Positions 1 to 7,649 of a stretch of 32,000 bases of DNA are shown piece by piece. The stretch is from positions 4,710,001 through 4,742,000 of the forward strand of contig NC_010546.1 of assembly GCF_000017845.1 (NCBI RefSeq), in the 5' to 3' direction. Both the position numbers and the translations under genes were made by a program. This DNA is from Crocosphaera subtropica ATCC 51142. GTDB taxonomy: Bacteria > Cyanobacteriota > Cyanobacteriia > Cyanobacteriales > Microcystaceae. Positions within the stretch are counted from its first letter, which is position 1. Every line of letters begins with the position of its first letter. A model generated the notes under the pieces. That model was not told where the DNA came from. It did not search any database and saw nothing but the letters and a program-made list of their open reading frames with translations.

Positions 1-288
1 TTAGGAATCCCTCTTAATACTACCCTAACTAAAACTATTAAAGGAGCTTCTGAAGATACTGTCTTAGCTGCTATAGAAGCGGTTAAGTATCAATTAGAAA
101 CGAGAGAAGTTGATAACCCTGGCGGACTATTAAATAAGGCTATCCAAGAAGGATGGACTAAACCTGAACCTAATTCTGTTCCCTCTCCTCCCAAACCTAA
201 AATCTACCATCCTACTGATGATGAAGAGAAGAAAAAGCTCTCATCAAAAGACTTAGCTAAACTCAGTAACTTATTCAAGGATAAATAA
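1..288 (+). CDS. 3' end of an ORF entering from upstream (95 codons visible); hypothetical, possibly a replication-associated partner of the downstream helicase
   Basis: Frame 1 is open from base 1 to TAA at 286-288 (...AIEAVKYQLETREVDNPGGLLNKAIQEGWTKPEP...KKKLSSKDLAKLSNLFKDK*). The stop lies 2 nt before the helicase ATG at 291, which suggests translational coupling. I recognise no family by eye. Confidence 0.5.
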   Translation, partial: LGIPLNTTLTKTIKGASEDTVLAAIEAVKYQLETREVDNPGGLLNKAIQEGWTKPEPNSVPSPPKPKIYHPTDDEEKKKLSSKDLAKLSNLFKDK

Positions 289-290
289 CT

Positions 291-1595
291 ATGACTAATA
301 ATATTACCCCTCAGAACATTGAAGCAGAAGAAAGCATTTTAGGAGGTATTCTCTTAGATCCTAATGCTATTAGTAGAGTAGCAGACATCTTACCTCCTGA
401 AGCTTTTTATGTCATGGCTCATCAACAAATTTATCAAGCAGCTTTAGACCTTTACCATAAAGACCAACCTTGTGATTTTATGACGGTCAAGACTTGGTTA
501 AAAGACTATAAACTTTTTACTAAAGTAGGGGGAGAGAATAAGTTAACCCAATTACTTGATAGGACAGTTTCTGCGGTTAATATAGACCGTTACGCTGCTT
601 TAGTAGTTGATAAGTATCAGCGTCGTTTATTGATTAATGCAGCTCGTGAGATTGAAGAATTGGGTTATGATACGGTCACGGAATTACCCTCTGTTTTGGA
701 ACTCTCAGAAGAAAAGTTATTTAAAGTTACAGTTGATGAAAAAGATCCCTTTCAACCTCAACCCATTCATGACTGTCTGAGGGATGTTTTTAATGAATTA
801 GAAGAAGGGAAAAGTCCTGCTTATTCGACTGGGTTAACTGACTTAGATAAGTTAACAGGAGGATTGACAAGAAAAGACTTAATTATTATTGCTGGTCGTG
901 CCTCAATGGGTAAGACTTGGTTCTCTATTTATCTAGCTAATCATGTAGCTATGACTTATCAAGTTCCTGTGGTCTTCTTCTCAGCAGAGATGTCTAAAAC
1001 TCAGTTAACTAAACGGTTTCTAGCCATACACTCAGGGATAGATTCGTCAAGATTAATGCGGAATGAAATTTATCAAGATGAATATGATTCCTTAGTTAAA
1101 GGATTAGGAATACTGACTGAGTTACCCATTATTATTGATGACACTCCTGCTAATACCTTAACTCCTTCAAGAATGCGCTCTGTGTTACGCAGAATTAAAG
1201 CAGAAAAGGGAAGCATTGGGTTAGTGGTAATGGATTATATTCAAAAGTTAGGAGACAGAGCAGCAGGGAATAGAGCGCAAGCTGTAGGGAAGTTTTCAGG
1301 GGCATTTAAGGACATAGCGAAAGAGTTTGATTGTCCTTTTATTGCCTTAGCACAGATTAACCGAGGGGTAGAAGGACAAGCTAACAAACGTCCTTTTATG
1401 AGTGATATAAAAGACTCTGGGGATATTGAACAGGATATGGATCTCGGACTGCTATTATATCGGGATGAATATTATAATCCTGACACTCAAGATAAGGGGA
1501 TTATGGAGATTAATGTGGCTAAAAATAGAAATGGACAAACGGGAGTTTGTCAGGTGCAGTTTAATCCTGTAGTTGGAGTATTCTTCAATAGTTAA
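291..1595 (+). CDS. dnaB: DnaB-family replicative DNA helicase (434 aa, no intein)
   Basis: N-terminal DnaB signature PQNIEAEESILGGILLDP...AFY..AHQQIYQA. Walker A GRASMGKT. Walker B-like LVVMDYIQKL. Further motifs are ALAQINRGVE and SDIKDSGDIEQDMDLGLLLYRDEYYN, with C-terminal KNRNGQTG. The reading frame is contiguous. Confidence 0.9.
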   Translation: MTNNITPQNIEAEESILGGILLDPNAISRVADILPPEAFYVMAHQQIYQAALDLYHKDQPCDFMTVKTWLKDYKLFTKVGGENKLTQLLDRTVSAVNIDRYAALVVDKYQRRLLINAAREIEELGYDTVTELPSVLELSEEKLFKVTVDEKDPFQPQPIHDCLRDVFNELEEGKSPAYSTGLTDLDKLTGGLTRKDLIIIAGRASMGKTWFSIYLANHVAMTYQVPVVFFSAEMSKTQLTKRFLAIHSGIDSSRLMRNEIYQDEYDSLVKGLGILTELPIIIDDTPANTLTPSRMRSVLRRIKAEKGSIGLVVMDYIQKLGDRAAGNRAQAVGKFSGAFKDIAKEFDCPFIALAQINRGVEGQANKRPFMSDIKDSGDIEQDMDLGLLLYRDEYYNPDTQDKGIMEINVAKNRNGQTGVCQVQFNPVVGVFFNS

Positions 1596-1654
1596 GTTCA
1601 GTCAATATCTCACTATCTCTTTTGAATATTCTCTATTTTTTGTCTATTTTCTAT

Positions 1655-2263
1655 TTATAAATTGAGAAATGACCATAACTTTTGAAGATTAAAATCATTC
1701 CAATTTAAAGTCACAGAACTCTCTATCATTAAATCCCCTTGTCTCAGTGTAGTTATCAATGCTGAATCATGTTCTAAACTCGAAAAAAGAGCTTCTATAA
1801 CCTGTAATTGATTTCGAGGAAAGGTATAGTAAACTTTATCCTCTTCGACTCTAACCCCTTCTGGTAACTTATCATTTGGGATTTTACCACCTAAAAAAGT
1901 TTTCCACCCTGCGATTAGATAACGGTAAATAATCGAGTCAGTTTGAAATTCAGGGGAGGTTAATAAACGAAGTTGTCCTTCAATAGAATCTTCATGAAGA
2001 ATAATTTTTTCTGGGGTAAAGTGTAATTTTACTTGAATTTCTTTATATTCGACAGTGGCAATGATTCCTTCTGATGAATGAGGTTCTAAATTTTTTAGTT
2101 GTTCAACTCTAGAAACAGCTTGTTGACAGAGAAGTAAAACGGTTTGTCTTTTCAGAGTTAACTGTTTTGTTTCTGAACTAAATACAATATAGTCTTTAAG
2201 AATTCCTTTGAGAATTTGTTTGGAATCTTGGACGGTTGCTTTGAGTTTGTTAAATATGCTCAT
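1655..2263 (-). CDS. hypothetical protein (202 aa), co-directional with and 65 nt downstream of the dynamin-like GTPase gene
   Basis: Long ORF with no competing frame and no recognisable motif. It is predicted soluble, with no long hydrophobic run. Its position suggests an operon with 2329..4938. Confidence 0.6.
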   Translation of the reverse strand: MSIFNKLKATVQDSKQILKGILKDYIVFSSETKQLTLKRQTVLLLCQQAVSRVEQLKNLEPHSSEGIIATVEYKEIQVKLHFTPEKIILHEDSIEGQLRLLTSPEFQTDSIIYRYLIAGWKTFLGGKIPNDKLPEGVRVEEDKVYYTFPRNQLQVIEALFSSLEHDSALITTLRQGDLMIESSVTLNWNDFNLQKLWSFLNL

Positions 2264-2328
2264 CTTGATTACTCAGTAAATAGTTTACACTAATTTTTTA
2301 TTTTCTAAAACTTTTGAATAGAAGTCTT

Positions 2329-4938
2329 CTAATTAACTTGTTCTGTTAAAAATACATCGATTACAGCACATATCTGATTTAGTTCTTGATGCTTTTGGCT
2401 AATCAACACCTTGTCTTGGTAACGCTTTTCAACATTTTTCTGATGTATTTTTTCTTGTTTTTCAAAGAAATCTTCACAACATATAATAATTTTATCTATG
2501 CCTTCCTTTCCCTTTTTTAAAATTGATTCTAAAATAGTAGAAATAAATTCATCTAAATCTTTTTCAATTGACTTTTGAGATTTGTTGATCTGTTGAATAG
2601 TTTCTTCTATTACTTTATTTTTTATGGTATCATGAATGTTATCAACATCTAATAAACCTAGCCCGAAAGAACTGGCAATCCATGATAATATTGCAGCTAT
2701 AATTATTCCAATAAATCCTACCCCTGTAAAAGCTAATAATCCCAGTGCAACAGCACCTCCTCCTAATCCACCAAACAAGACTCCTCCTCCTCCTGTGATA
2801 TCTACTTGAACAGCCTTAATCAACTGAGAAACTTTTTTACTAAGTGTTAGGTTATTTTTTTTGTCTATTGACTGTAAATTTTGATCAATAATAGCCATTT
2901 TTCTTGTTATAAATTCCTCTAATATTTCAATTTTTGGTAACAAAATGTTTTTTACTAAATCATTATCTACCCATGTATCTATATCTTTTTTCAAACAAGC
3001 TACACATTGATTAGTATAGTCTTTAGCTAGTTTGTTTTGATTCCATAAATGCGAATACTCAGATGTCCATGAGGATTTTTTCTGATATAGCCGATGACTT
3101 AACCCTTCTAACCATCGATTGAAAGACTCTTTGGTTTGGACGCTTGCTTCGCTTAATAATTGCTCCATTTTTTTCTGAAATTGTATATCATACCCCGTAG
3201 CTTCTCCTATTTGTTCTATAACCTCTTGTTTAGCTTTTTTAGAAAGGATAACTTCATTGTTGAGAAAGCTTTCATATTCTGTTAAATCGGCTATACATCG
3301 CTGAATTATTAAGTTCAATTCATGGAGATATTTCTTAATTACTAAATAACCTCTTTCGTCACTCATAAATTTTTCTAGGGTTTGAGTAAAATGTTGAAAT
3401 TCTCTTAAATACTCACTCTCGGCTTGATTAATAATAGAATCTAAAGCTTCTTGAGCAGATAAAAAATGAACTCGATTATCTCCACTTATTAAGGCAGGTG
3501 GACTAAACACAATATTTTCAATTCGTTCTCTAACTTGTTGACGATCCTTTTCTCTTCGCAAGAGATCCCATTTATTAACGACAAGAAAAATATTTTCAGC
3601 AGAAACTTCTGAGTTGTCTCCATTTAAAAATTGTTTTAACTCTTGAAGAACTTCTTTTTCTCTTTGAGTTAGGGGGCGAGAAGCATCCGTTAGAAAAATA
3701 ATGGCATCCGTATCTTCGAGAATTTGCTTAGTGATAGCAGTACGGTCAGGATGTTCATTTAACCCTGGAGAATCAATAATTATTACCCCATTTTTACACA
3801 AAGCTAAATTGGGATGCTCGAAGATAACTTCTTTGATAGGATTTTCTATTAGTTGTTGATTGATATCACATTGTTCTAATGCAACCTCATAGTCAATAGT
3901 GACTTTATCCTCATATTTTTCAAAAGGAATTTCTTCTTCTGTACCATCTTGATAGTGACAAATAACTCGTTTTTTCTCCCCATATTTTAAAAGACTAACT
4001 GTTCCACTACAAGGGATAGCTCTAGTGGGTTGAATTTCTTCTCTCAGTAGTGCATTTAATAGGGTTGATTTTCCTTGACTGAAATCGCCAATAACTGCCA
4101 CTCTAAACTGTTGTGATTGCAGAGATTTAGAAGTTTTTTCTAGGTCTTTAATTAGCGTATCAGACAATAATCCCTGTTTGTAGCTATCTTTTAAAATCAA
4201 GGATACTTGATTGAATAATACTTTTAGCTGTTGTCGATGGATTTGGAAATTTTCTAGTTTTTGATAAGAGAAACTCGCTTTAGGAGAAGAGATATTATCC
4301 TGATCATCAAACTTATTAATATTTTGTTTTTCTAATTGGGGTAATTGTTCGCAAATCTGTTGAGCAGCTAAAACAAAGATTTTGTCAAGTTCTTGAAAAC
4401 GACAAGGATCTAATAAGGACTGTAGATCAGCTAAAATATCTGGTTCAATATTTTCTTGATTAGTTAATACTGCTTCAAGTGCCTTTTGATATTGACTTTC
4501 AATCTCAAGAACAAAAGCAATGTGCTTGAGATACTTTTGTTCATTTATCTCTATTTTTCCATCGGCAACGGACATTTGATAGCCTAAACTTAGAAGAAGT
4601 AGCTTTTCTGATTCTGATAAAGATTCTGCAAGAGTAATTATATTATCGATAGAATAGAGTTTCTGCTGTTGAATATTTTTAGTAATAATTTCCGCTAATT
4701 CATAAATATTATCTGCATAAGAGCATAAATACTTAAGAGTTATTTCTAATTTTCCTTTTTCCTCCTCTGCCACTATTCCATCGGCAAAAATTACCCCATT
4801 TAAAACCGCTAAAACAGAGGCTAGAAAAACCACTGGGTGGCTAATATTTTTGGGTTCTAACTTTTGACCTGTTAACTGTGATATTAAAATGTCAACTTTT
4901 GAACTCATTAAGGACGTATTCATAGATTCTAGCTTCAT
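2329..4938 (-). CDS. dynamin-family large GTPase with N-terminal TerB-like domain and C-terminal Gly-rich membrane segment (869 aa)
   Basis: G1 P-loop GDFSQGKST (aa 284-292), G3 DSPG (aa 389-392) and G4 NKWD (aa 455-458), with long helical regions after the G domain as in bacterial dynamin-like proteins. The N-terminus (aa ~33-146) has the paired ADG...E motifs typical of TerB/DjlA-N domains (FADGIVAEEEKGKL and VADGKIEINEQKYL). The hydrophobic Gly-rich stretch GGGGVLFGGLGGGAVALGLLAFTGVGFIGIIIAAILSWIASSFGLGLL spans aa ~716-763 (nt ~2650-2793). Confidence 0.8.
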   Translation of the reverse strand: MKLESMNTSLMSSKVDILISQLTGQKLEPKNISHPVVFLASVLAVLNGVIFADGIVAEEEKGKLEITLKYLCSYADNIYELAEIITKNIQQQKLYSIDNIITLAESLSESEKLLLLSLGYQMSVADGKIEINEQKYLKHIAFVLEIESQYQKALEAVLTNQENIEPDILADLQSLLDPCRFQELDKIFVLAAQQICEQLPQLEKQNINKFDDQDNISSPKASFSYQKLENFQIHRQQLKVLFNQVSLILKDSYKQGLLSDTLIKDLEKTSKSLQSQQFRVAVIGDFSQGKSTLLNALLREEIQPTRAIPCSGTVSLLKYGEKKRVICHYQDGTEEEIPFEKYEDKVTIDYEVALEQCDINQQLIENPIKEVIFEHPNLALCKNGVIIIDSPGLNEHPDRTAITKQILEDTDAIIFLTDASRPLTQREKEVLQELKQFLNGDNSEVSAENIFLVVNKWDLLRREKDRQQVRERIENIVFSPPALISGDNRVHFLSAQEALDSIINQAESEYLREFQHFTQTLEKFMSDERGYLVIKKYLHELNLIIQRCIADLTEYESFLNNEVILSKKAKQEVIEQIGEATGYDIQFQKKMEQLLSEASVQTKESFNRWLEGLSHRLYQKKSSWTSEYSHLWNQNKLAKDYTNQCVACLKKDIDTWVDNDLVKNILLPKIEILEEFITRKMAIIDQNLQSIDKKNNLTLSKKVSQLIKAVQVDITGGGGVLFGGLGGGAVALGLLAFTGVGFIGIIIAAILSWIASSFGLGLLDVDNIHDTIKNKVIEETIQQINKSQKSIEKDLDEFISTILESILKKGKEGIDKIIICCEDFFEKQEKIHQKNVEKRYQDKVLISQKHQELNQICAVIDVFLTEQVN

Positions 4939-4955
4939 AAAAAATCTCTGACTAT

Positions 4956-4994
4956 AACATTCCCCAATGTCACTAAAAAATTAACAACATTCCC
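4956..4994. promoter_or_regulatory. direct repeat AACATTCCC x2 (30-nt spacing) in the divergent promoter region between the dynamin-like gene and the 420-aa gene
   Basis: AACATTCCC occurs at 4956-4964 and again at 4986-4994. Both copies lie inside the 133-nt intergenic region 4939-5071. Confidence 0.25.
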
Positions 4995-5071
4995 AAAAAA
5001 TACGGATGAGTTACTCAACCTAATCTATTAATCTGGACACAGATAGTTTTTTACACCAGGAAAACAGCAAA

Positions 5072-6334
5072 ATGTTGTTTCAGTTCTCTCCCCTCATTGA
5101 AGCAGGAATCGCAGCAGGTAAATATGCACCTGTTATGTCTTCTGGGGTTCCCATTGGACTTGCCAGAGATGTCGCTACAGGCCAGTTTGTTGCTCATGCC
5201 CAAGGTTTGATCAATACGGTAGGAATGCCACTTAACCCCCTAATTTCTCCTATTCAACTGCTGTCCAGTGGCGCACAAATGTATCAAACCCACAGAGGTT
5301 TTCAAGCGGTACAACAAGGGCTTCAATGTCTTCAGGCTAGTGTAGGAGTCTTGCAAGCTACCACTGCTGTCATTGGGGTAGGAGTGGCCGCAGGGGTTGC
5401 TCTTTCTGCTGTCAATCTCTATCACACCCTAAAATTAAGAAAAGCTGTAGAAAGACTCGAAATAAATGTCGAAAACGGCTTTATTGATTTAAAACAAGTC
5501 TTGAAAGATCAAGAACGAGAGATTATTCAACTCATAGAAGAAGTCGCTCAAGATATTAAATTTGAACAACATCGTTTAATTTTAGTCAAAGCCTATGGCT
5601 TGTTTACAAAAGCACTAGATCGTTTGCGTTCAGCCCTTTACTTACAGGATCTTAGCCGTAGAAATGCTGAAATCGATGCAGCACGGGGAATGTTATTTGA
5701 AGCCTTAGCAGACTATACTAATCCTCAATTACTTGAAGAAATATCCGCCCCAGGAATCCTACGCAGAGCCGAATGTGCGTGGGGCATAGAACAAACCATT
5801 ATTGCAACTTACCAAATGCAAGGAGAATTATCTGTTGTCGGAGATCGCCTTGAGTCCCTTCAAGGTAAGATCCGTCAAGATACAGTTAAACTCGTTGAAT
5901 CTTTGGAAACTGAAGACGAGCTTGATTTTCTGTTTCCTGAAATCAGCCGAATTCGTCATCATGATTTAGTTGTTATAGAGTCCTGGCAAACTCAAAATGA
6001 TTGGATCAAGTCTCTCCCTTCTGAAGACCTTAAATTACTTCAAAGTGCTGATTTTAGCCAGACAGATATTCCCCCTAATGCCAGTCAACAAGAAAGCCAA
6101 CTTATGCTCTCAGAACCCCTAGAACTTTCACTTTATAAAGACTTACAAGAAAAGTCTCATCCTGGTTCTCTACGAGATCAGTTATTGTTCATGATGGACT
6201 CTAATTTACGTCAAAATGCTGAATCGTATATTAGTCAGCAAGCAAGTTTATTGGGACATGAAACCTTAGCCTTATCTAATTTACAAATCGCTTCACATTT
6301 AACCATTGCTAATCTTTACTGGTATTTTAAATAG
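5072..6334 (+). CDS. hypothetical protein (420 aa) with one hydrophobic segment and a helical/coiled-coil body; divergent from the dynamin-like gene
   Basis: Long ORF. A hydrophobic segment VGVLQATTAVIGVGVAAGVALSAVNLY lies at aa ~91-117, followed by a charged helical region. The C-terminal motif LTIANLYWYF recurs in a remnant at 26722..26988. I recognise no family. Confidence 0.65.
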   Translation: MLFQFSPLIEAGIAAGKYAPVMSSGVPIGLARDVATGQFVAHAQGLINTVGMPLNPLISPIQLLSSGAQMYQTHRGFQAVQQGLQCLQASVGVLQATTAVIGVGVAAGVALSAVNLYHTLKLRKAVERLEINVENGFIDLKQVLKDQEREIIQLIEEVAQDIKFEQHRLILVKAYGLFTKALDRLRSALYLQDLSRRNAEIDAARGMLFEALADYTNPQLLEEISAPGILRRAECAWGIEQTIIATYQMQGELSVVGDRLESLQGKIRQDTVKLVESLETEDELDFLFPEISRIRHHDLVVIESWQTQNDWIKSLPSEDLKLLQSADFSQTDIPPNASQQESQLMLSEPLELSLYKDLQEKSHPGSLRDQLLFMMDSNLRQNAESYISQQASLLGHETLALSNLQIASHLTIANLYWYFK

Positions 6335-6742
6335 CCACAGTTGAACAAGCCTCGATGTACATTCTTCACCAACTTAGTTCTAGTCGTTTTGAATTTAATT
6401 ATTAAGACGCATTGGGCGTTGATTGTAAGGTAGCAACCAATATTCAAGAGAAACTATCAAAATCTACTAGAACCTAAAATTATGAGTTTTTTAGGTTAAT
6501 GGGGTTTTAAATCATTTCATTACTCGTACTCACTCACCTCCGCTTTCATAAACTAAAAAATGCAGTGTTGATTTCTTCAAGCCTACAGTTATCATGAGGT
6601 ATCATAATTTATGTTGTTAATGCTTTTTACTTTTTATCTTCATCCCTTATTGTATAAAATATAAATAACAATAGAAGCTATATATATCAATAATTATAGC
6701 AATTGTGTACGAGATAATTTTGGGTTTAAAGATAACTACACA

Positions 6743-7252
6743 ATGACAAAAGCAGCAGTTGCTGTATTAAAATTGCCCAGTTTAGAATTAGTAGAAAGTC
6801 AAACAGCATTAATACCCACAACCTTTCCTTATATTCCTGGTTTCTTATCGTTTAGAGAAATTCCGGCACTATTAAAAGTGATAGAAAAACTGACGATTAT
6901 TCCTGATATCATTCTCTGTGATGGACAAGGAATAGCCCATCCGAGACGCTTGGGTATTGCTTCTCATTTAGGGGTTTTACTCAATATTCCCACTATTGGT
7001 GTGGCTAAATCTTTATTAATAGGAAAACATGAAGAAGTTCCCCTAGAAAAAGGCTCCTGGAAACCATTAATTGATAAAAAAGAAGTCATAGGAGCCGTAT
7101 TAAGATCAAGGACAAACGTAAAACCTATTTATGTTTCTATTGGTCATAAAATTAGTTTACCCACAGCCCTAGATTATGTGATGGCTTGTTTGACAAAATA
7201 TCGCTTACCCGAAACCACTAGATGGGCAGATAAGTTAGCATCAGATAAATAA
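6743..7252 (+). CDS. nfi: endonuclease V, apparently 5'-truncated (169-aa ORF; homology runs ~30 nt upstream of the ATG with no start codon)
   Basis: FPYIPGFLSFREIPALL, DGQGIAHPRRLGIASHLG, PTIGVAKS and YRLPETTRWADKLA match conserved EndoV blocks as in the E. coli and T. maritima enzymes. The usual ~40 N-terminal residues are absent. Confidence 0.8.
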   Translation: MTKAAVAVLKLPSLELVESQTALIPTTFPYIPGFLSFREIPALLKVIEKLTIIPDIILCDGQGIAHPRRLGIASHLGVLLNIPTIGVAKSLLIGKHEEVPLEKGSWKPLIDKKEVIGAVLRSRTNVKPIYVSIGHKISLPTALDYVMACLTKYRLPETTRWADKLASDK

Positions 7253-7271
7253 TTAAATTAGCAACTAAACA

Positions 7272-7649
7272 ATGATTAAACTGTTTCTTTTTATTGGTTC
7301 AATTTTAGCTGGCTTATCCGTCGCAGGTGGGGCATTTGCCAGCCACGCTTTGAAAGATAAATTGAGTGATCGCTCCTTAGAAATCTTTGAGACAGGGACA
7401 AAATATCAGATGTATCACGCCCTAGCTTTAATCTTAGTGGCGTTATTTTTAACTCGCCTAGAAACTGTCCCGATGACTTTAAGCAGTGCAGGCTATGCCT
7501 TTATTATCGGTATTCTCATCTTTTCAGGGAGTCTTTACGCCCTTAGTTTGACAGGGGTAAAATGGCTAGGAGCGATCACCCCTATTGGTGGGGCTGCGTT
7601 TCTTGTGGGTTGGCTAAGTTTGGCGATCGCAGCTTGGGGCATGAAGTAA
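7272..7649 (+). CDS. DUF423 (YgdD-like) small membrane protein
   Basis: 125 aa with four hydrophobic helices. The motifs GGAFASHAL and YQMYHALAL are typical of DUF423. Confidence 0.75.
   Translation: MIKLFLFIGSILAGLSVAGGAFASHALKDKLSDRSLEIFETGTKYQMYHALALILVALFLTRLETVPMTLSSAGYAFIIGILIFSGSLYALSLTGVKWLGAITPIGGAAFLVGWLSLAIAAWGMK

What the first reader, a model, noticed from the sequence alone, without database searches (positions are those of the whole stretch)
1655..6334. TerB-like/dynamin-like GTPase cassette with two unclassifiable partners: candidate undescribed membrane-associated conflict or defence module
Three genes share a 133-nt divergent control region.
- The first is an 869-aa protein. 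It combines a TerB-like N-terminal domain (paired ADG...E motifs), a dynamin-type G domain (GDFSQGKST, DSPG, NKWD), long helical stalk-like regions and a Gly-rich hydrophobic hairpin (aa ~716-763).
- The second is a 202-aa protein 65 nt downstream on the same strand, with no motif I can recognise.
- The third is a divergent 420-aa protein with one hydrophobic segment and a helical body, also unrecognisable.
The block sits in a HIP1-free, visibly AT-richer segment. It is flanked by a DnaB-type helicase on one side and a 5'-truncated nfi on the other, which is the context expected for horizontally acquired cargo.
Bacterial dynamin-like proteins remodel or seal membranes (Nostoc BDLP). They have been linked to phage resistance (B. 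subtilis DynA; the LeoA-type GTPases of the Eleos system). TerB domains recur in stress and conflict systems.
This single-GTPase, TerB-fused, three-gene layout does not match the Eleos layout as I know it. The functional link between the three genes is inference.
Basis: partly seen in the sequence, partly recalled or inferred. Interest (0 to 1): 0.75.

Follow-up and report, generated by a model that had tools for sequence, protein, structure and literature searches.

The report
Conserved cyanobacterial TerB-dynamin gene pair
The locus is not a mobile phage-defence cassette: it holds a chromosomal, vertically inherited gene pair found in many cyanobacteria (a membrane-remodelling dynamin-like GTPase fused to a TerB domain, plus an uncharacterised membrane-anchored partner), and the third gene is a recent optional add-on.

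Summary
The window is Crocosphaera subtropica ATCC 51142. The three ORFs correspond to cce_4566 (exact match), the gene between (by numbering cce_4567, no exact record found) and cce_4568 (exact match).

The sequence observations hold. The 869-aa protein carries TerB, a Dynamin_N G domain and a hydrophobic hairpin. The 202-aa and 420-aa proteins match no known family. The gaps of 133 nt and 65 nt are as stated.

The three-gene, horizontally acquired defence reading does not hold.
- The GTPase is a full-length relative of Nostoc BDLP (profile E 5e-45).
- It sits divergently next to a p420 orthologue in 68 of 76 evaluable genomes across cyanobacterial orders, at a median spacing of 139 bp.
- The intergenic region carries a conserved dyad and conserved -10-like boxes.
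- The two proteins' divergences co-vary (r = 0.84) and follow taxonomy.
- Flanking genes are ordinary chromosomal genes and differ between orders.
- Neither protein has a close homologue on plasmids or phages.
- The 202-aa gene lies in a 668-bp indel absent from the sister species, and it accompanies the pair in only 3 of 80 other loci.

In other genomes p420 orthologues carry C-terminal ACP or GUN4 domains.

Best reading: a conserved two-component membrane fusion or repair module. The function is inferred, not shown. It is an uncharacterised variant of bacterial dynamin systems.

The parts
2329..4938 (-). TerB-fused BDLP-class dynamin-like GTPase (by gene numbering cce_4567; no exact record was found). 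869 aa as the longest ORF; the likely true start is M6 at 4923, giving 864 aa.
   Evidence: Pfam TerB and Dynamin_N. A profile of 17 homologues matches full-length Nostoc BDLP 2J68 with E 5e-45 over profile positions 213-836. 679 homologues, nearly all with the same TerB+Dynamin_N architecture.
4492..4815 (-). TerB domain (residues 42-149) with invariant acidic pairs D53/E60 and D126/E133
   Evidence: This domain is about as conserved across 59 loci (0.73) as the G domain (0.77).
3499..4101 (-). Dynamin-type G domain (residues about 280-480): G1 GDFSQGKST, G3 DSPG, G4 NKWD
   Evidence: G284, K290, S291, D389-G392, N455 and D458 are invariant.
2644..2787 (-). Gly/Ala-rich hydrophobic hairpin (residues 718-765), the predicted membrane-inserting paddle or double transmembrane segment
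   Evidence: Kyte-Doolittle 19-residue peak of 2.46. It lies within the span of the full-length BDLP profile alignment; that it occupies the place of the BDLP paddle is inferred.
4939..5071 (.). Divergent control region of 133 nt. It holds a conserved dyad (TCCGTATTTTTTGGGA on the - strand, 4991-5006) between two conserved -10-like boxes, one for each gene.
   Evidence: Median spacing is 139 bp in 64 pairs. The core CCGTRWTT occurs in 51 of 64 intergenic regions, against a background of 0.058 per kb per strand. Invariant columns in a 13-taxon alignment.
5072..6334 (+). p420 (cce_4568), the dedicated partner of the GTPase: conserved N-terminal beta-hairpin region, one hydrophobic segment (89-117), and a helical bundle (about 160-420). 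No known family.
   Evidence: Adjacent and divergent to the GTPase in 68 of 76 evaluable loci. About 60% identical between Crocosphaera and Nostoc.
1655..2263 (-). p202 (cce_4566), a soluble alpha/beta protein of unknown fold. It is a facultative accessory or passenger, not part of the conserved core.
   Evidence: 100% match to cce_4566. AlphaFold2 pLDDT 89 with no Foldseek match at E<1e-3 in PDB or BFVD. Next to the pair in only L019, L031 and L057 among 80 loci.
1631..2298 (.). 668-bp indel relative to C. chwakensis CCY0110 that carries p202. It is bounded by a 10-bp direct repeat CTTTTGAATA at 1619-1628 and 2311-2320.
   Evidence: blastn of the window against L001; sequences read directly.

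Best explanation
The core of the locus is a two-gene module that is widespread in cyanobacteria, chromosomal and vertically inherited.

Gene 1 is a BDLP/mitofusin-class dynamin-like GTPase. It has a G domain, a helical neck and trunk, a membrane-inserting hydrophobic hairpin and C-terminal helices. A TerB domain with intact acidic pairs is fused to its N-terminus.

Gene 2 (p420) is transcribed divergently from a shared control region of about 140 bp. That region carries a conserved dyad between the two -10-like boxes. p420 is a membrane-anchored helical protein with no known relatives. In other cyanobacteria it carries a C-terminal acyl-carrier-protein (ACP) domain or a porphyrin-binding GUN4 domain.

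Inferred mechanism:
- p420 is the membrane-resident adaptor or receptor of the GTPase. Both have Gly/Ala-rich hydrophobic segments that could pack together in the bilayer.
- The TerB domain gates the nucleotide-dependent opening of the BDLP-type fold, in response to a metal or membrane-proximal signal.
- The complex tethers and then fuses or reseals membranes (thylakoid or cytoplasmic membrane) during membrane stress or biogenesis.
- One regulator binding the dyad co-controls both genes.

The 202-aa gene is a facultative accessory that entered, or was retained, in C. subtropica only.

Shown: the domain architecture, the homology to BDLP, the conserved pairing, the co-inheritance, the conserved cis-element and the ACP/GUN4 fusions.
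Inferred: physical interaction of the two proteins, the role of TerB, fusion or repair activity, and which membrane is targeted.
For: - Architecture.
- Full-length homology to BDLP 2J68 (E 5e-45), then Cj-DLP1 and mitofusins. LeoA reaches only E 3e-3.
- Pairing: a p420 orthologue lies divergently upstream of the GTPase in 68 of 76 evaluable loci spanning Nostocales, Oscillatoriales, Pleurocapsales, Chroococcales and Leptolyngbya-like taxa.
- No other neighbouring gene is conserved beyond the genus level.
- Reciprocal check from the p420 side: the pair is intact in Funiculus; only a GTPase remnant is left in Westiellopsis.
- Co-inheritance: pairwise identity matrices correlate, r = 0.84 over 59 loci. 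The nearest neighbour falls in the same taxon group in 49 of 52 cases for the GTPase and 44 of 52 for p420.
- Conserved intergenic dyad and -10-like boxes.
- Chromosomal contexts are ordinary cellular genes such as alaS, priA, dapF, hfq, a PBP and lspA.
- No full-length or close homologue on plasmids, and p420 is absent from phages.
- Genuine single-ORF fusions: p420-ACP with the DSL phosphopantetheine motif, and p420-GUN4, in Calothrix, Aphanizomenon, Microcoleus, Coleofasciculaceae, Nostoc and a close Crocosphaera relative.
- p420 is 99% identical between the two Crocosphaera species, so it is under strong purifying selection.
Against: - No experiment, expression data or localisation data were found for any of the three genes.
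- p420 has no detectable homology or fold match to any characterised protein. Its adaptor role rests on gene order alone.
- The pair is not universal. The scan counted 242 species-level genomes encoding a relative of the GTPase; pairing with p420 was examined only in the 80 loci returned. p420 has decayed next to an intact GTPase in Okeania, Dapis and Trichodesmium-type genomes. The module is therefore dispensable and accessory in the wide sense.
- Distant p420 paralogues carry WD40, TPR or MORN repeats. Such architectures also occur in conflict systems.
- TerB domains occur in the defence systems Shango and Bunzi (bioRxiv 10.1101/2022.05.11.491447).
- The ACP and GUN4 fusions suggest a link to lipid and tetrapyrrole metabolism but do not prove one.
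Confidence: 0.55

Rival explanations
1. One reading: a horizontally acquired three-gene anti-phage or conflict module, in which the dynamin-like GTPase seals or remodels membranes during infection and the two unknown proteins act as sensor or effector.
For: - PADLOC LeoA (E 6e-22) and LeoBC (E 2e-10) matches.
- TerB occurs in Shango and Bunzi, and B. subtilis DynA delays phage lysis (bioRxiv 10.1101/2022.05.11.491447; PMC9950537).
- Distant p420 paralogues have WD40, TPR or MORN tails.
- p202 is an indel. It occurs on two plasmids, once beside NB-ARC and CHAT genes.
- p202 has a borderline PADLOC PDC-S49 match (E 0.003).
Against: - The LeoA match is confined mainly to the region around the P-loop. 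NCBIfam LeoA scores 27.8 bits against a cut-off of 325, and solved LeoA reaches only E 3e-3 against 5e-45 for BDLP.
- There is a single GTPase, and its partner is not a dynamin.
- The pair is vertically inherited, co-inherited, and absent from plasmids, with p420 absent from phages.
- It is flanked by ordinary chromosomal genes in most genomes inspected; the exception is Funiculus, where an NB-ARC/WD40 gene lies next to p420.
- p420 is about 60% identical across orders and 99% identical between sister species. This is unlike fast-evolving immune genes.
- p202 is missing from 76 of the 79 other loci.
Confidence: 0.12
2. p202 is a true third component, as the finding proposes: an optional regulator or cargo adaptor of dynamin-like proteins that can be encoded in cis or elsewhere in the genome.
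For: - p202 homologues lie next to the pair in at least two different arrangements. In C. subtropica p202 is downstream of the GTPase. In Nostocales loci L019, L031, L057, L090, L095 and L104, and in Nostoc LLA-1 and Calothrix FACHB-236 (by consecutive locus tags), it is downstream of p420.
- One homologue sits 346 bp upstream of a different Dynamin_N gene that is followed by YjcZ and patatin genes.
- Another is within 5.4 kb of a dynamin gene on a Stanieria plasmid.
- No terminator-like site was found between the GTPase gene and p202 in the window.
Against: - Most p202 homologues (about 35 of 43 loci) have no dynamin or p420 neighbour and sit in unrelated contexts.
- Nostoc sp. MG11 encodes p202 on a different contig from the pair.
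- The sister species lacks it at this site.
- In several p202-adjacent loci the GTPase or p420 is fragmented.
Confidence: 0.2
3. The pair acts in cell division or septum remodelling, as Streptomyces DynA/DynB do, or in metal or tellurite-type stress resistance through TerB, rather than in bulk membrane fusion or repair.
For: - Bacterial dynamins are known to act at division septa (PMC9950537).
- The TerB acidic metal-binding pairs are invariant.
- In Coleofasciculus and Funiculus the pair neighbours a PBP and lspA.
Against: - No division genes are consistently linked.
- No terC, terD, terZ or other Ter-operon genes occur in the window or as conserved neighbours.
- The pair occurs in both unicellular and filamentous forms.
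Confidence: 0.1

Closest known systems
Nostoc punctiforme BDLP (PDB 2J68/2J69/2W6D), the 'Tandem B' cyanobacterial dynamin-like protein
   Same: Homology over the full length: G domain, neck, trunk and the paddle region (profile E 5e-45, positions 213-836 against chain residues 12-672). The extended P-loop GxxxxGKSxLxNALL described for cyanobacterial BDLPs is present (PMC5827413).
   Different: This protein has an N-terminal TerB domain of about 200 residues that BDLP lacks. It is encoded singly beside a non-GTPase partner, not in a tandem of two dynamin genes. The N. punctiforme orthologue (ACC79321) is a separate gene and is not among the Npun entries listed in PMC5827413. The hydrophobic segment is about 48 residues, long enough for a double membrane span.
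Mitofusin / Fzo1 / plant FZL-type fusion dynamins
   Same: Same order of parts: G domain, helical region, bipartite hydrophobic anchor, C-terminal helices. Significant profile matches to Mfn1, Mfn2 and Fzo1 (E 5e-13 to 8e-8). It plausibly works like a membrane-anchored fusion dynamin.
   Different: The matches mainly cover the G domain and adjacent helices. No eukaryotic or plastid orthologue appeared among the listed hits. Those proteins have no TerB domain. A relationship to FZL could not be tested here.
Eleos system (LeoA + LeoBC dynamin-like pair)
   Same: Dynamin-type G domain; PADLOC LeoA and LeoBC profiles give partial matches.
   Different: Eleos is defined by two consecutive dynamin-like genes found in defence islands (bioRxiv 10.1101/2022.05.11.491447). 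Here there is one GTPase, the partner shares no homology with it, the NCBIfam LeoA score is far below cut-off, and the contexts are not defence islands.
Campylobacter jejuni DLP1/DLP2 and B. subtilis DynA
   Same: Bacterial fusion or tethering dynamins. Cj-DLP1 is the second-best solved relative (E 1.7e-15). Both need two dynamin modules, on two polypeptides (Cj-DLP1/2) or fused in one (DynA).
   Different: In those systems the second component is another dynamin. Here it is a novel membrane-anchored helical protein. NCBIfam DynA scores 50.6 bits against a cut-off of 1600.
TerB-domain proteins (Ter operon TerB, DjlA N-terminal domain, Shango/Bunzi TerB proteins)
   Same: Pfam TerB above cut-off, with the paired acidic motifs conserved. 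A weak NCBIfam DjlA match covers residues 36-161. TerB proteins are generally membrane-proximal.
   Different: No Ter-operon partners and no J domain, helicase or ATPase partners. No paper in the searchable library describes a fusion of TerB to a dynamin.

Membership tests
Dynamin superfamily, BDLP/mitofusin class | Dynamin_N G domain above the curated cut-off, with G1, G3 and G4 motifs conserved | tested here: met
   95.4 bits against a cut-off of 27. G284, K290, S291, D389-G392, N455 and D458 are invariant.
Dynamin superfamily, BDLP/mitofusin class | Homology beyond the G domain to the helical neck and trunk of a solved BDLP | tested here: met
   2J68 E 5e-45, profile positions 213-836 against chain residues 12-672.
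Dynamin superfamily, BDLP/mitofusin class | Membrane-binding paddle or hydrophobic anchor within the trunk | tested here: met
   Residues 718-765, Kyte-Doolittle peak 2.46. G726 and G728 are invariant.
Dynamin superfamily, BDLP/mitofusin class | GTP-dependent self-assembly and membrane remodelling | not testable with these tools
   Needs biochemistry.
Eleos (LeoA/LeoBC) defence system | Two consecutive dynamin-like genes | tested here: not met
   One GTPase gene. The neighbours p420 and p202 have no GTPase domain, and hhalign of p420 against the GTPase gives probability 0.4%.
Eleos (LeoA/LeoBC) defence system | Full-length match to the LeoA family model | tested here: not met
   NCBIfam DLP_LeoA_gen scores 27.8 bits against a cut-off of 325, covering residues 230-300 only. 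Solved LeoA reaches E 3e-3.
Eleos (LeoA/LeoBC) defence system | Residence in defence islands or on mobile elements | tested here: not met
   Neighbours are ordinary chromosomal genes in most contexts read. One context has an adjacent NB-ARC/WD40 gene. No close homologue on plasmids, and p420 is absent from phages.
TerB domain family (PF05099) | Profile match above the gathering score, with two conserved acidic pairs | tested here: met
   28.8 bits against a cut-off of 24.4. D53, E60, D126 and E133 are invariant. PF05099 is precomputed on nearly all homologues.
Tellurite-resistance (Ter) operon | Linkage to terZ, terA, terC, terD, terE or associated genes | tested here: not met
   None in the window and none among conserved neighbours.
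B. subtilis DynA-type two-headed dynamin | Two fused dynamin modules; NCBIfam equivalog score | tested here: not met
   One G domain. 50.6 bits against a cut-off of 1600.
Any described family for p420 and p202 | Significant sequence or fold match to a curated family or a solved structure | tested here: not met
   Pfam, NCBIfam and PHROGs give nothing significant, and PADLOC gives only a borderline PDC-S49 match for p202. PDB profile searches give E >= 0.2. Foldseek against PDB and BFVD gives no hit at E < 1e-3.

The most novel reading that the evidence does not exclude
The TerB-BDLP/p420 pair could be a dedicated cyanobacterial machine for thylakoid or plasma-membrane fusion and repair. Its adaptor (p420) would couple membrane remodelling to the supply or sensing of membrane building blocks: acyl chains through the ACP-fused forms and chlorophyll precursors through the GUN4-fused forms. 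TerB would act as the trigger, and a dedicated regulator would bind the conserved dyad. This would make it a prokaryotic functional counterpart of plant FZL, with a new kind of non-GTPase dynamin receptor.
Probability: 0.15. Interest if true: 0.8.

Novelty: new variant of a known kind. Interest (0 to 1): 0.5.

Why it matters
Which proteins fuse, repair and shape cyanobacterial membranes, thylakoids in particular, is a long-standing open question. The many cyanobacterial dynamin-like proteins have almost no assigned functions (PMC5827413, PMC9950537).

This locus defines a clean, testable unit:
- one BDLP-class GTPase with a built-in TerB domain;
- one obligate-looking membrane partner of a new family;
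- a conserved shared operator;
- natural ACP and GUN4 fusions that suggest what the partner binds.

The pair occurs in genetically tractable strains such as Nostoc punctiforme. It also serves as a caution: dynamin plus TerB does not by itself indicate phage defence.

Tried and rejected
- Exact look-up of the 869-aa protein found no record, probably because the annotated start differs.
- Foldseek of the p420 and p202 models against PDB, and of p202 against BFVD, gave only insignificant matches (Cry-toxin helical domain, START/Bet v 1-like; TM-score 0.28 or below).
- PDB sequence-profile searches for p420 and p202 found nothing.
- I tested whether p420 is a degenerate dynamin stalk. hhalign against the GTPase family was negative.
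- PHROGs gave only a TerB match. Rfam found no RNA family in the window.
- The repeat search found no flanking mobile-element repeats around the block.
- The promoter and terminator scan was uninformative: 21 promoter-like sites against 19 expected.
- Literature searches for the locus tags and for TerB-dynamin fusions returned nothing relevant. Many hits were for the author name 'TerBush'.
- I looked for ACP or GUN4 remnants downstream of p420 in the window and in C. chwakensis. None were found.
- A stricter regex for the dyad, meant to find other regulon members in the loci, was not informative.
- An extended P-loop motif scan for other dynamins next to p202 homologues found only the one intact TerB-dynamin.
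- The neighbourhoods of three distant p420 paralogues (WD40, MORN and one without a recognised domain) showed no dynamin.
Full report
IDENTITY OF THE WINDOW AND CHECK OF THE OBSERVATION

The 202-aa ORF is 100% identical to cce_4566 of Crocosphaera subtropica ATCC 51142 (formerly Cyanothece 51142). The 420-aa ORF is cce_4568. By numbering, the GTPase between them would be cce_4567, but an exact look-up of the 869-aa translation found no record.

The divergent gap is 133 nt, and 65 nt separate the GTPase gene from p202.

- Pfam confirms TerB at residues 42-149 (28.8 bits, cut-off 24.4) and Dynamin_N at 280-435 (95.4 bits).
- The P-loop (K290), DSPG and NKWD motifs are present.
- The paired TerB acidic residues D53/E60 and D126/E133 are invariant among 17 diverse homologues.
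- Hydropathy shows a 48-residue Gly/Ala-rich hydrophobic stretch at 718-765 in the GTPase and one hydrophobic segment at 89-117 in p420. p202 has none.
- p420 matches nothing in Pfam, NCBIfam or PADLOC. p202 matches nothing in Pfam or NCBIfam and has only a borderline PADLOC PDC-S49 hit at E 0.003.
- The flanking genes are a DnaB-type helicase and an nfi ORF that matches only positions 37-198 of the Endonuclease_5 profile.

Two parts of the description are weaker.

First, the 'HIP1-free, AT-rich segment' is not a coherent island. The HIP1-free stretch (1-7622) also covers dnaB. The window holds only 11 sites and has another gap of 6.4 kb. The chance of such an empty stretch is about 0.05. The GTPase gene (31.8% GC) and p202 (32.3%) are low, like two MscS genes elsewhere in the window, but p420 is 40.8%, above the window mean of 36.1%.

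Second, all homologues align from residue 6 and M6 is invariant, so the GTPase probably starts at the ATG at 4921-4923.

WHAT THE GTPase IS

A profile of the family matches the solved Nostoc punctiforme BDLP over its whole length (2J68, E 5e-45, profile positions 213-836 against chain residues 12-672). Next come Campylobacter DLP1, mitofusins 1 and 2, IniA and Fzo1. LeoA reaches only E 3e-3 and SynDLP about 3e-4.

The protein is therefore a BDLP/mitofusin-class dynamin with about 200 extra N-terminal residues that contain TerB. The PADLOC LeoA and LeoBC matches reflect similarity around the P-loop. The NCBIfam LeoA and DynA models are far below their cut-offs.

The architecture is not peculiar to this strain. 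679 homologues were scored, and nearly all are 845-880 aa with TerB plus Dynamin_N. They come from Nostoc, Calothrix, Microcoleus, Coleofasciculus, Pegethrix and others.

THE KEY RESULT: A RIGID TWO-GENE MODULE, NOT A THREE-GENE CASSETTE

A scan of one genome per species found 242 species-level genomes with a relative of the GTPase. I examined the best 80 loci.

- A p420 orthologue lies divergently upstream of the GTPase in 67 loci by HMM, plus one cut by a contig end.
- Four loci have too little upstream sequence to judge.
- Eight loci lack an intact p420, several with remnants. Six are Okeania, Dapis, Trichodesmium or other Microcoleaceae genomes, and two are MAGs labelled Phormidiaceae and Cyanobacteria (L065, L063).
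- This gives 68 of 76 evaluable loci.
- The ORF-to-ORF spacing has a median of 139 bp.
- Clustering all flanking ORFs showed no other gene conserved beyond the genus Nostoc.
- Starting from p420 instead, Funiculus has the intact pair, and Westiellopsis has p420 next to a decayed GTPase.
- The pairwise identity matrices of the two proteins correlate (Pearson 0.84, 59 loci).
- The nearest neighbour of each sequence is almost always in the same taxonomic group (49 of 52 for the GTPase, 44 of 52 for p420). All exceptions fall within Nostocales.
- p420 is the more conserved partner: about 60% identical between Crocosphaera and Nostoc, and 99% identical between C. subtropica and C. chwakensis.

Within the intergenic region there is a dyad, ACCGTATTTnnnCGGT in Nostocales and TCCGTATTTTTTGGGA in the window (4991-5006, - strand). 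It sits between two conserved -10-like boxes, one facing each gene. Its core occurs in 51 of 64 intergenic regions, against 0.058 per kb per strand elsewhere in the loci. It forms invariant columns in a 13-taxon alignment. Counting in the window copy, the dyad is centred roughly 40-50 nt upstream of both inferred transcription starts. That is where a shared regulator would bind. This last step is inference.

p202 BEHAVES DIFFERENTLY

Against the sister species C. chwakensis CCY0110:
- window 1-1630 (dnaB) aligns at 89.8%;
- window 2299-6376 (GTPase plus p420) aligns at 95.3%;
- the two blocks are contiguous in the sister genome.

So window 1631-2298, which carries p202, is a clean 668-bp indel. 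It is bounded by a 10-bp direct repeat, CTTTTGAATA.

Among the other 79 loci, p202 is near the pair in only three (L019, L031, L057). There it lies downstream of p420, not of the GTPase.

Looking from the p202 side (43 loci from genomes and metagenomes):
- about six have p420 or the TerB-dynamin adjacent, some of them fragmented;
- one sits upstream of a different Dynamin_N gene followed by YjcZ and patatin genes;
- the rest are in unrelated contexts.

p202 also occurs on two cyanobacterial plasmids, once beside NB-ARC and CHAT genes with a dynamin gene 5.4 kb away.

The recurrence in two different arrangements is more than chance would give. p202 may be an optional dynamin-associated accessory, but it is not part of the conserved unit.

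IS IT MOBILE OR DEFENCE-RELATED?

- PLSDB plasmids contain no p420 homologue and only distant G-domain matches to the GTPase. The phage collection has no p420 or p202.
- The contexts in N. punctiforme (ABC transporter, purU-like gene, alaS), Pegethrix (priA, a sigma factor, bioB), Coleofasciculus and Funiculus (dapF, hfq, a PBP, lspA) and the rest of this window (DUF423, an epimerase, MscS channels, two-component genes, a Na/H exchanger, a subtilase) are ordinary chromosomal genes. One exception is an NB-ARC/WD40 gene beside p420 in Funiculus.
- No flanking repeats or RNA elements were found.

Eleos is defined by two consecutive dynamin-like genes in defence islands (bioRxiv 10.1101/2022.05.11.491447). 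None of those features is met here.

WHAT CAN BE SAID ABOUT p420 AND p202

AlphaFold2 with 65 homologues gives p420 a pLDDT of 77 and pTM of 0.80. The model has small N-terminal beta-hairpins (18-42), hydrophobic helices (70-127) and a well-predicted helical bundle (about 160-420).

p202 folds confidently (pLDDT 89) into an alpha/beta domain.

Neither has a Foldseek match at E < 1e-3 in the PDB, nor does p202 in BFVD. p420 is not a degenerate dynamin stalk.

An exhaustive profile search of 1.84 billion representatives found only 241 proteins at E <= 1e-3. The distant ones share only the first ~300 positions of p420 and then carry WD40, TPR or MORN repeats. Three such paralogues that I inspected have no dynamin neighbour.

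More telling, true orthologues sitting next to the TerB-dynamin carry single-ORF C-terminal fusions:
- an acyl-carrier-protein domain with the canonical DSL motif (Calothrix, Aphanizomenon, Microcoleus, Coleofasciculaceae, and an 82%-identical relative of the Crocosphaera protein);
- a GUN4 porphyrin-binding domain (Calothrix, Nostoc).

The Crocosphaera protein ends before the acidic linker, and no remnant of either domain lies downstream.

p420 therefore looks like a modular adaptor: a conserved membrane-anchored base with an exchangeable C-terminal binding or carrier module.

MECHANISM

Shown:
- a catalytically intact BDLP-class GTPase with a membrane-inserting hairpin and a conserved TerB domain;
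- an almost obligatory, co-inherited, divergently transcribed membrane partner;
- a conserved shared cis-element;
- ACP and GUN4 fusions on the partner.

Inferred:
- p420 recruits or anchors the GTPase, possibly by packing of the Gly/Ala-rich hydrophobic segments;
- TerB gates the closed-to-open transition known for BDLP;
- the complex tethers and then fuses or reseals membranes during stress or membrane biogenesis;
- the ACP and GUN4 tails point to lipid and chlorophyll-precursor traffic, and hence to thylakoids.

I give the 'conserved two-component membrane-remodelling module' reading about 0.55. That it is a functional gene pair is much more certain than what it does. The rivals are defence (about 0.12), p202 as a true third component (about 0.2; compatible with the main reading), and division or metal-stress roles (about 0.1).

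COMPARISON WITH WHAT IS KNOWN, AND NOVELTY

The survey of cyanobacterial dynamin-like proteins (PMC5827413) sorts them by neighbours into KGK, HSR1, chaperone, Tandem A/B and unclassified groups. It does not mention TerB. Its only N. punctiforme entries are the tandem pair Npun_R6512 and Npun_R6513, whereas the TerB-dynamin of that strain is a separate gene (ACC79321).

No paper in the searchable library mentions cce_4566, cce_4567 or cce_4568, or a TerB-dynamin fusion. Databases label the proteins 'dynamin family protein' and 'hypothetical protein'.

I rate this a new variant of a known kind: a bacterial dynamin system with a novel fused sensor-like domain and a novel non-GTPase partner. It is not a new defence system.

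VERDICT

- Observation: partly confirmed.
- Defence and horizontal-transfer interpretation: largely not supported.
- What remains: a real, conserved, uncharacterised two-gene membrane module. Interest is moderate (0.5). It would rise if the link to thylakoid lipid and pigment handling holds.

Noticed in passing
window 1619-1628 and 2311-2320 (indel 1631-2298): The p202 gene sits in a 668-bp segment absent from C. chwakensis CCY0110. The segment is bounded by a 10-bp direct repeat, CTTTTGAATA. This fits either an insertion with target duplication or a deletion by microhomology in the sister species.
   Followed up: yes
window 6377-6506 and 6717-7252: Synteny with C. chwakensis ends at about 6717, just before the nfi ORF. 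That ORF lacks roughly the first 36 profile positions of Endonuclease V, and no upstream ORF supplies them. A 130-bp stretch (6377-6506) is also absent from the sister genome. A local rearrangement probably truncated nfi.
   Followed up: partly
window 4991-5006 (- strand); loci L002-L078 intergenic regions: A conserved dyad (ACCG-N8-CGGT type, core CCGTRWTT) lies between two conserved -10-like boxes in the GTPase/p420 intergenic region, across cyanobacterial orders. It does not match the regulator motifs I recalled from memory (NtcA, LexA, Fur, HLR1, CIRCE). The binding factor is unknown.
   Followed up: partly
L033 8122-9858(-), L015 6148-7878(-), L027 8262-9860(-), L078 3053-4615(-), L061, L080, L035; proteins P0244, P0282, P0351, P0274: p420 orthologues adjacent to the TerB-dynamin carry single-ORF C-terminal fusions: either an ACP domain (with the DSL motif) or a GUN4 porphyrin-binding domain. 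The fusions are scattered over Nostocales, Oscillatoriales and a close Crocosphaera relative.
   Followed up: yes
proteins P0467, P0469, P0491, P0497 (loci L129-L133): Distant paralogues share only the N-terminal ~300 residues of p420 (hydrophobic segment plus the NGFxDLK helical region). They continue into WD40, TPR or MORN repeats. The three whose neighbourhoods I read (WD40, MORN and one without a recognised domain) are not next to dynamins.
   Followed up: partly
L082 6001-11413 (Nostoc sp. UHCC 0870): A p202 homologue lies 346 bp upstream of a different, TerB-less Dynamin_N gene (793 aa). That gene is followed by YjcZ and patatin-like phospholipase genes. This may be a separate dynamin-lipase cluster.
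   Followed up: no
L044, L048, L049, L053, L055, L056, L063, L065; L134: The pair is decaying in some lineages. p420 is absent or reduced to fragments beside an apparently intact GTPase in Okeania, Dapis and Trichodesmium-type genomes. In Westiellopsis prolifica the GTPase is reduced to fragments (residues 7-61 and 576-866) beside an intact p420.
   Followed up: partly
window 2299-6376 versus 1-1630: The GTPase/p420 block is 95.3% identical in DNA to C. chwakensis, while the adjacent dnaB is 89.8% identical. The pair is thus more conserved than the neighbouring replication gene, or it was exchanged recently between the two species.
   Followed up: no
L011 (labelled Candidatus Sericytochromatia) and protein P0034 (labelled Methylacidiphilales): These apparently non-cyanobacterial labels are probably binning errors. 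P0034 has the same longest-contig length (28,226 bp) as the Calothrix sp. CSU_2_0 contig of L026. L011 is nearly identical in its intergenic sequence to a Coleofasciculaceae contig (L035).
   Followed up: partly
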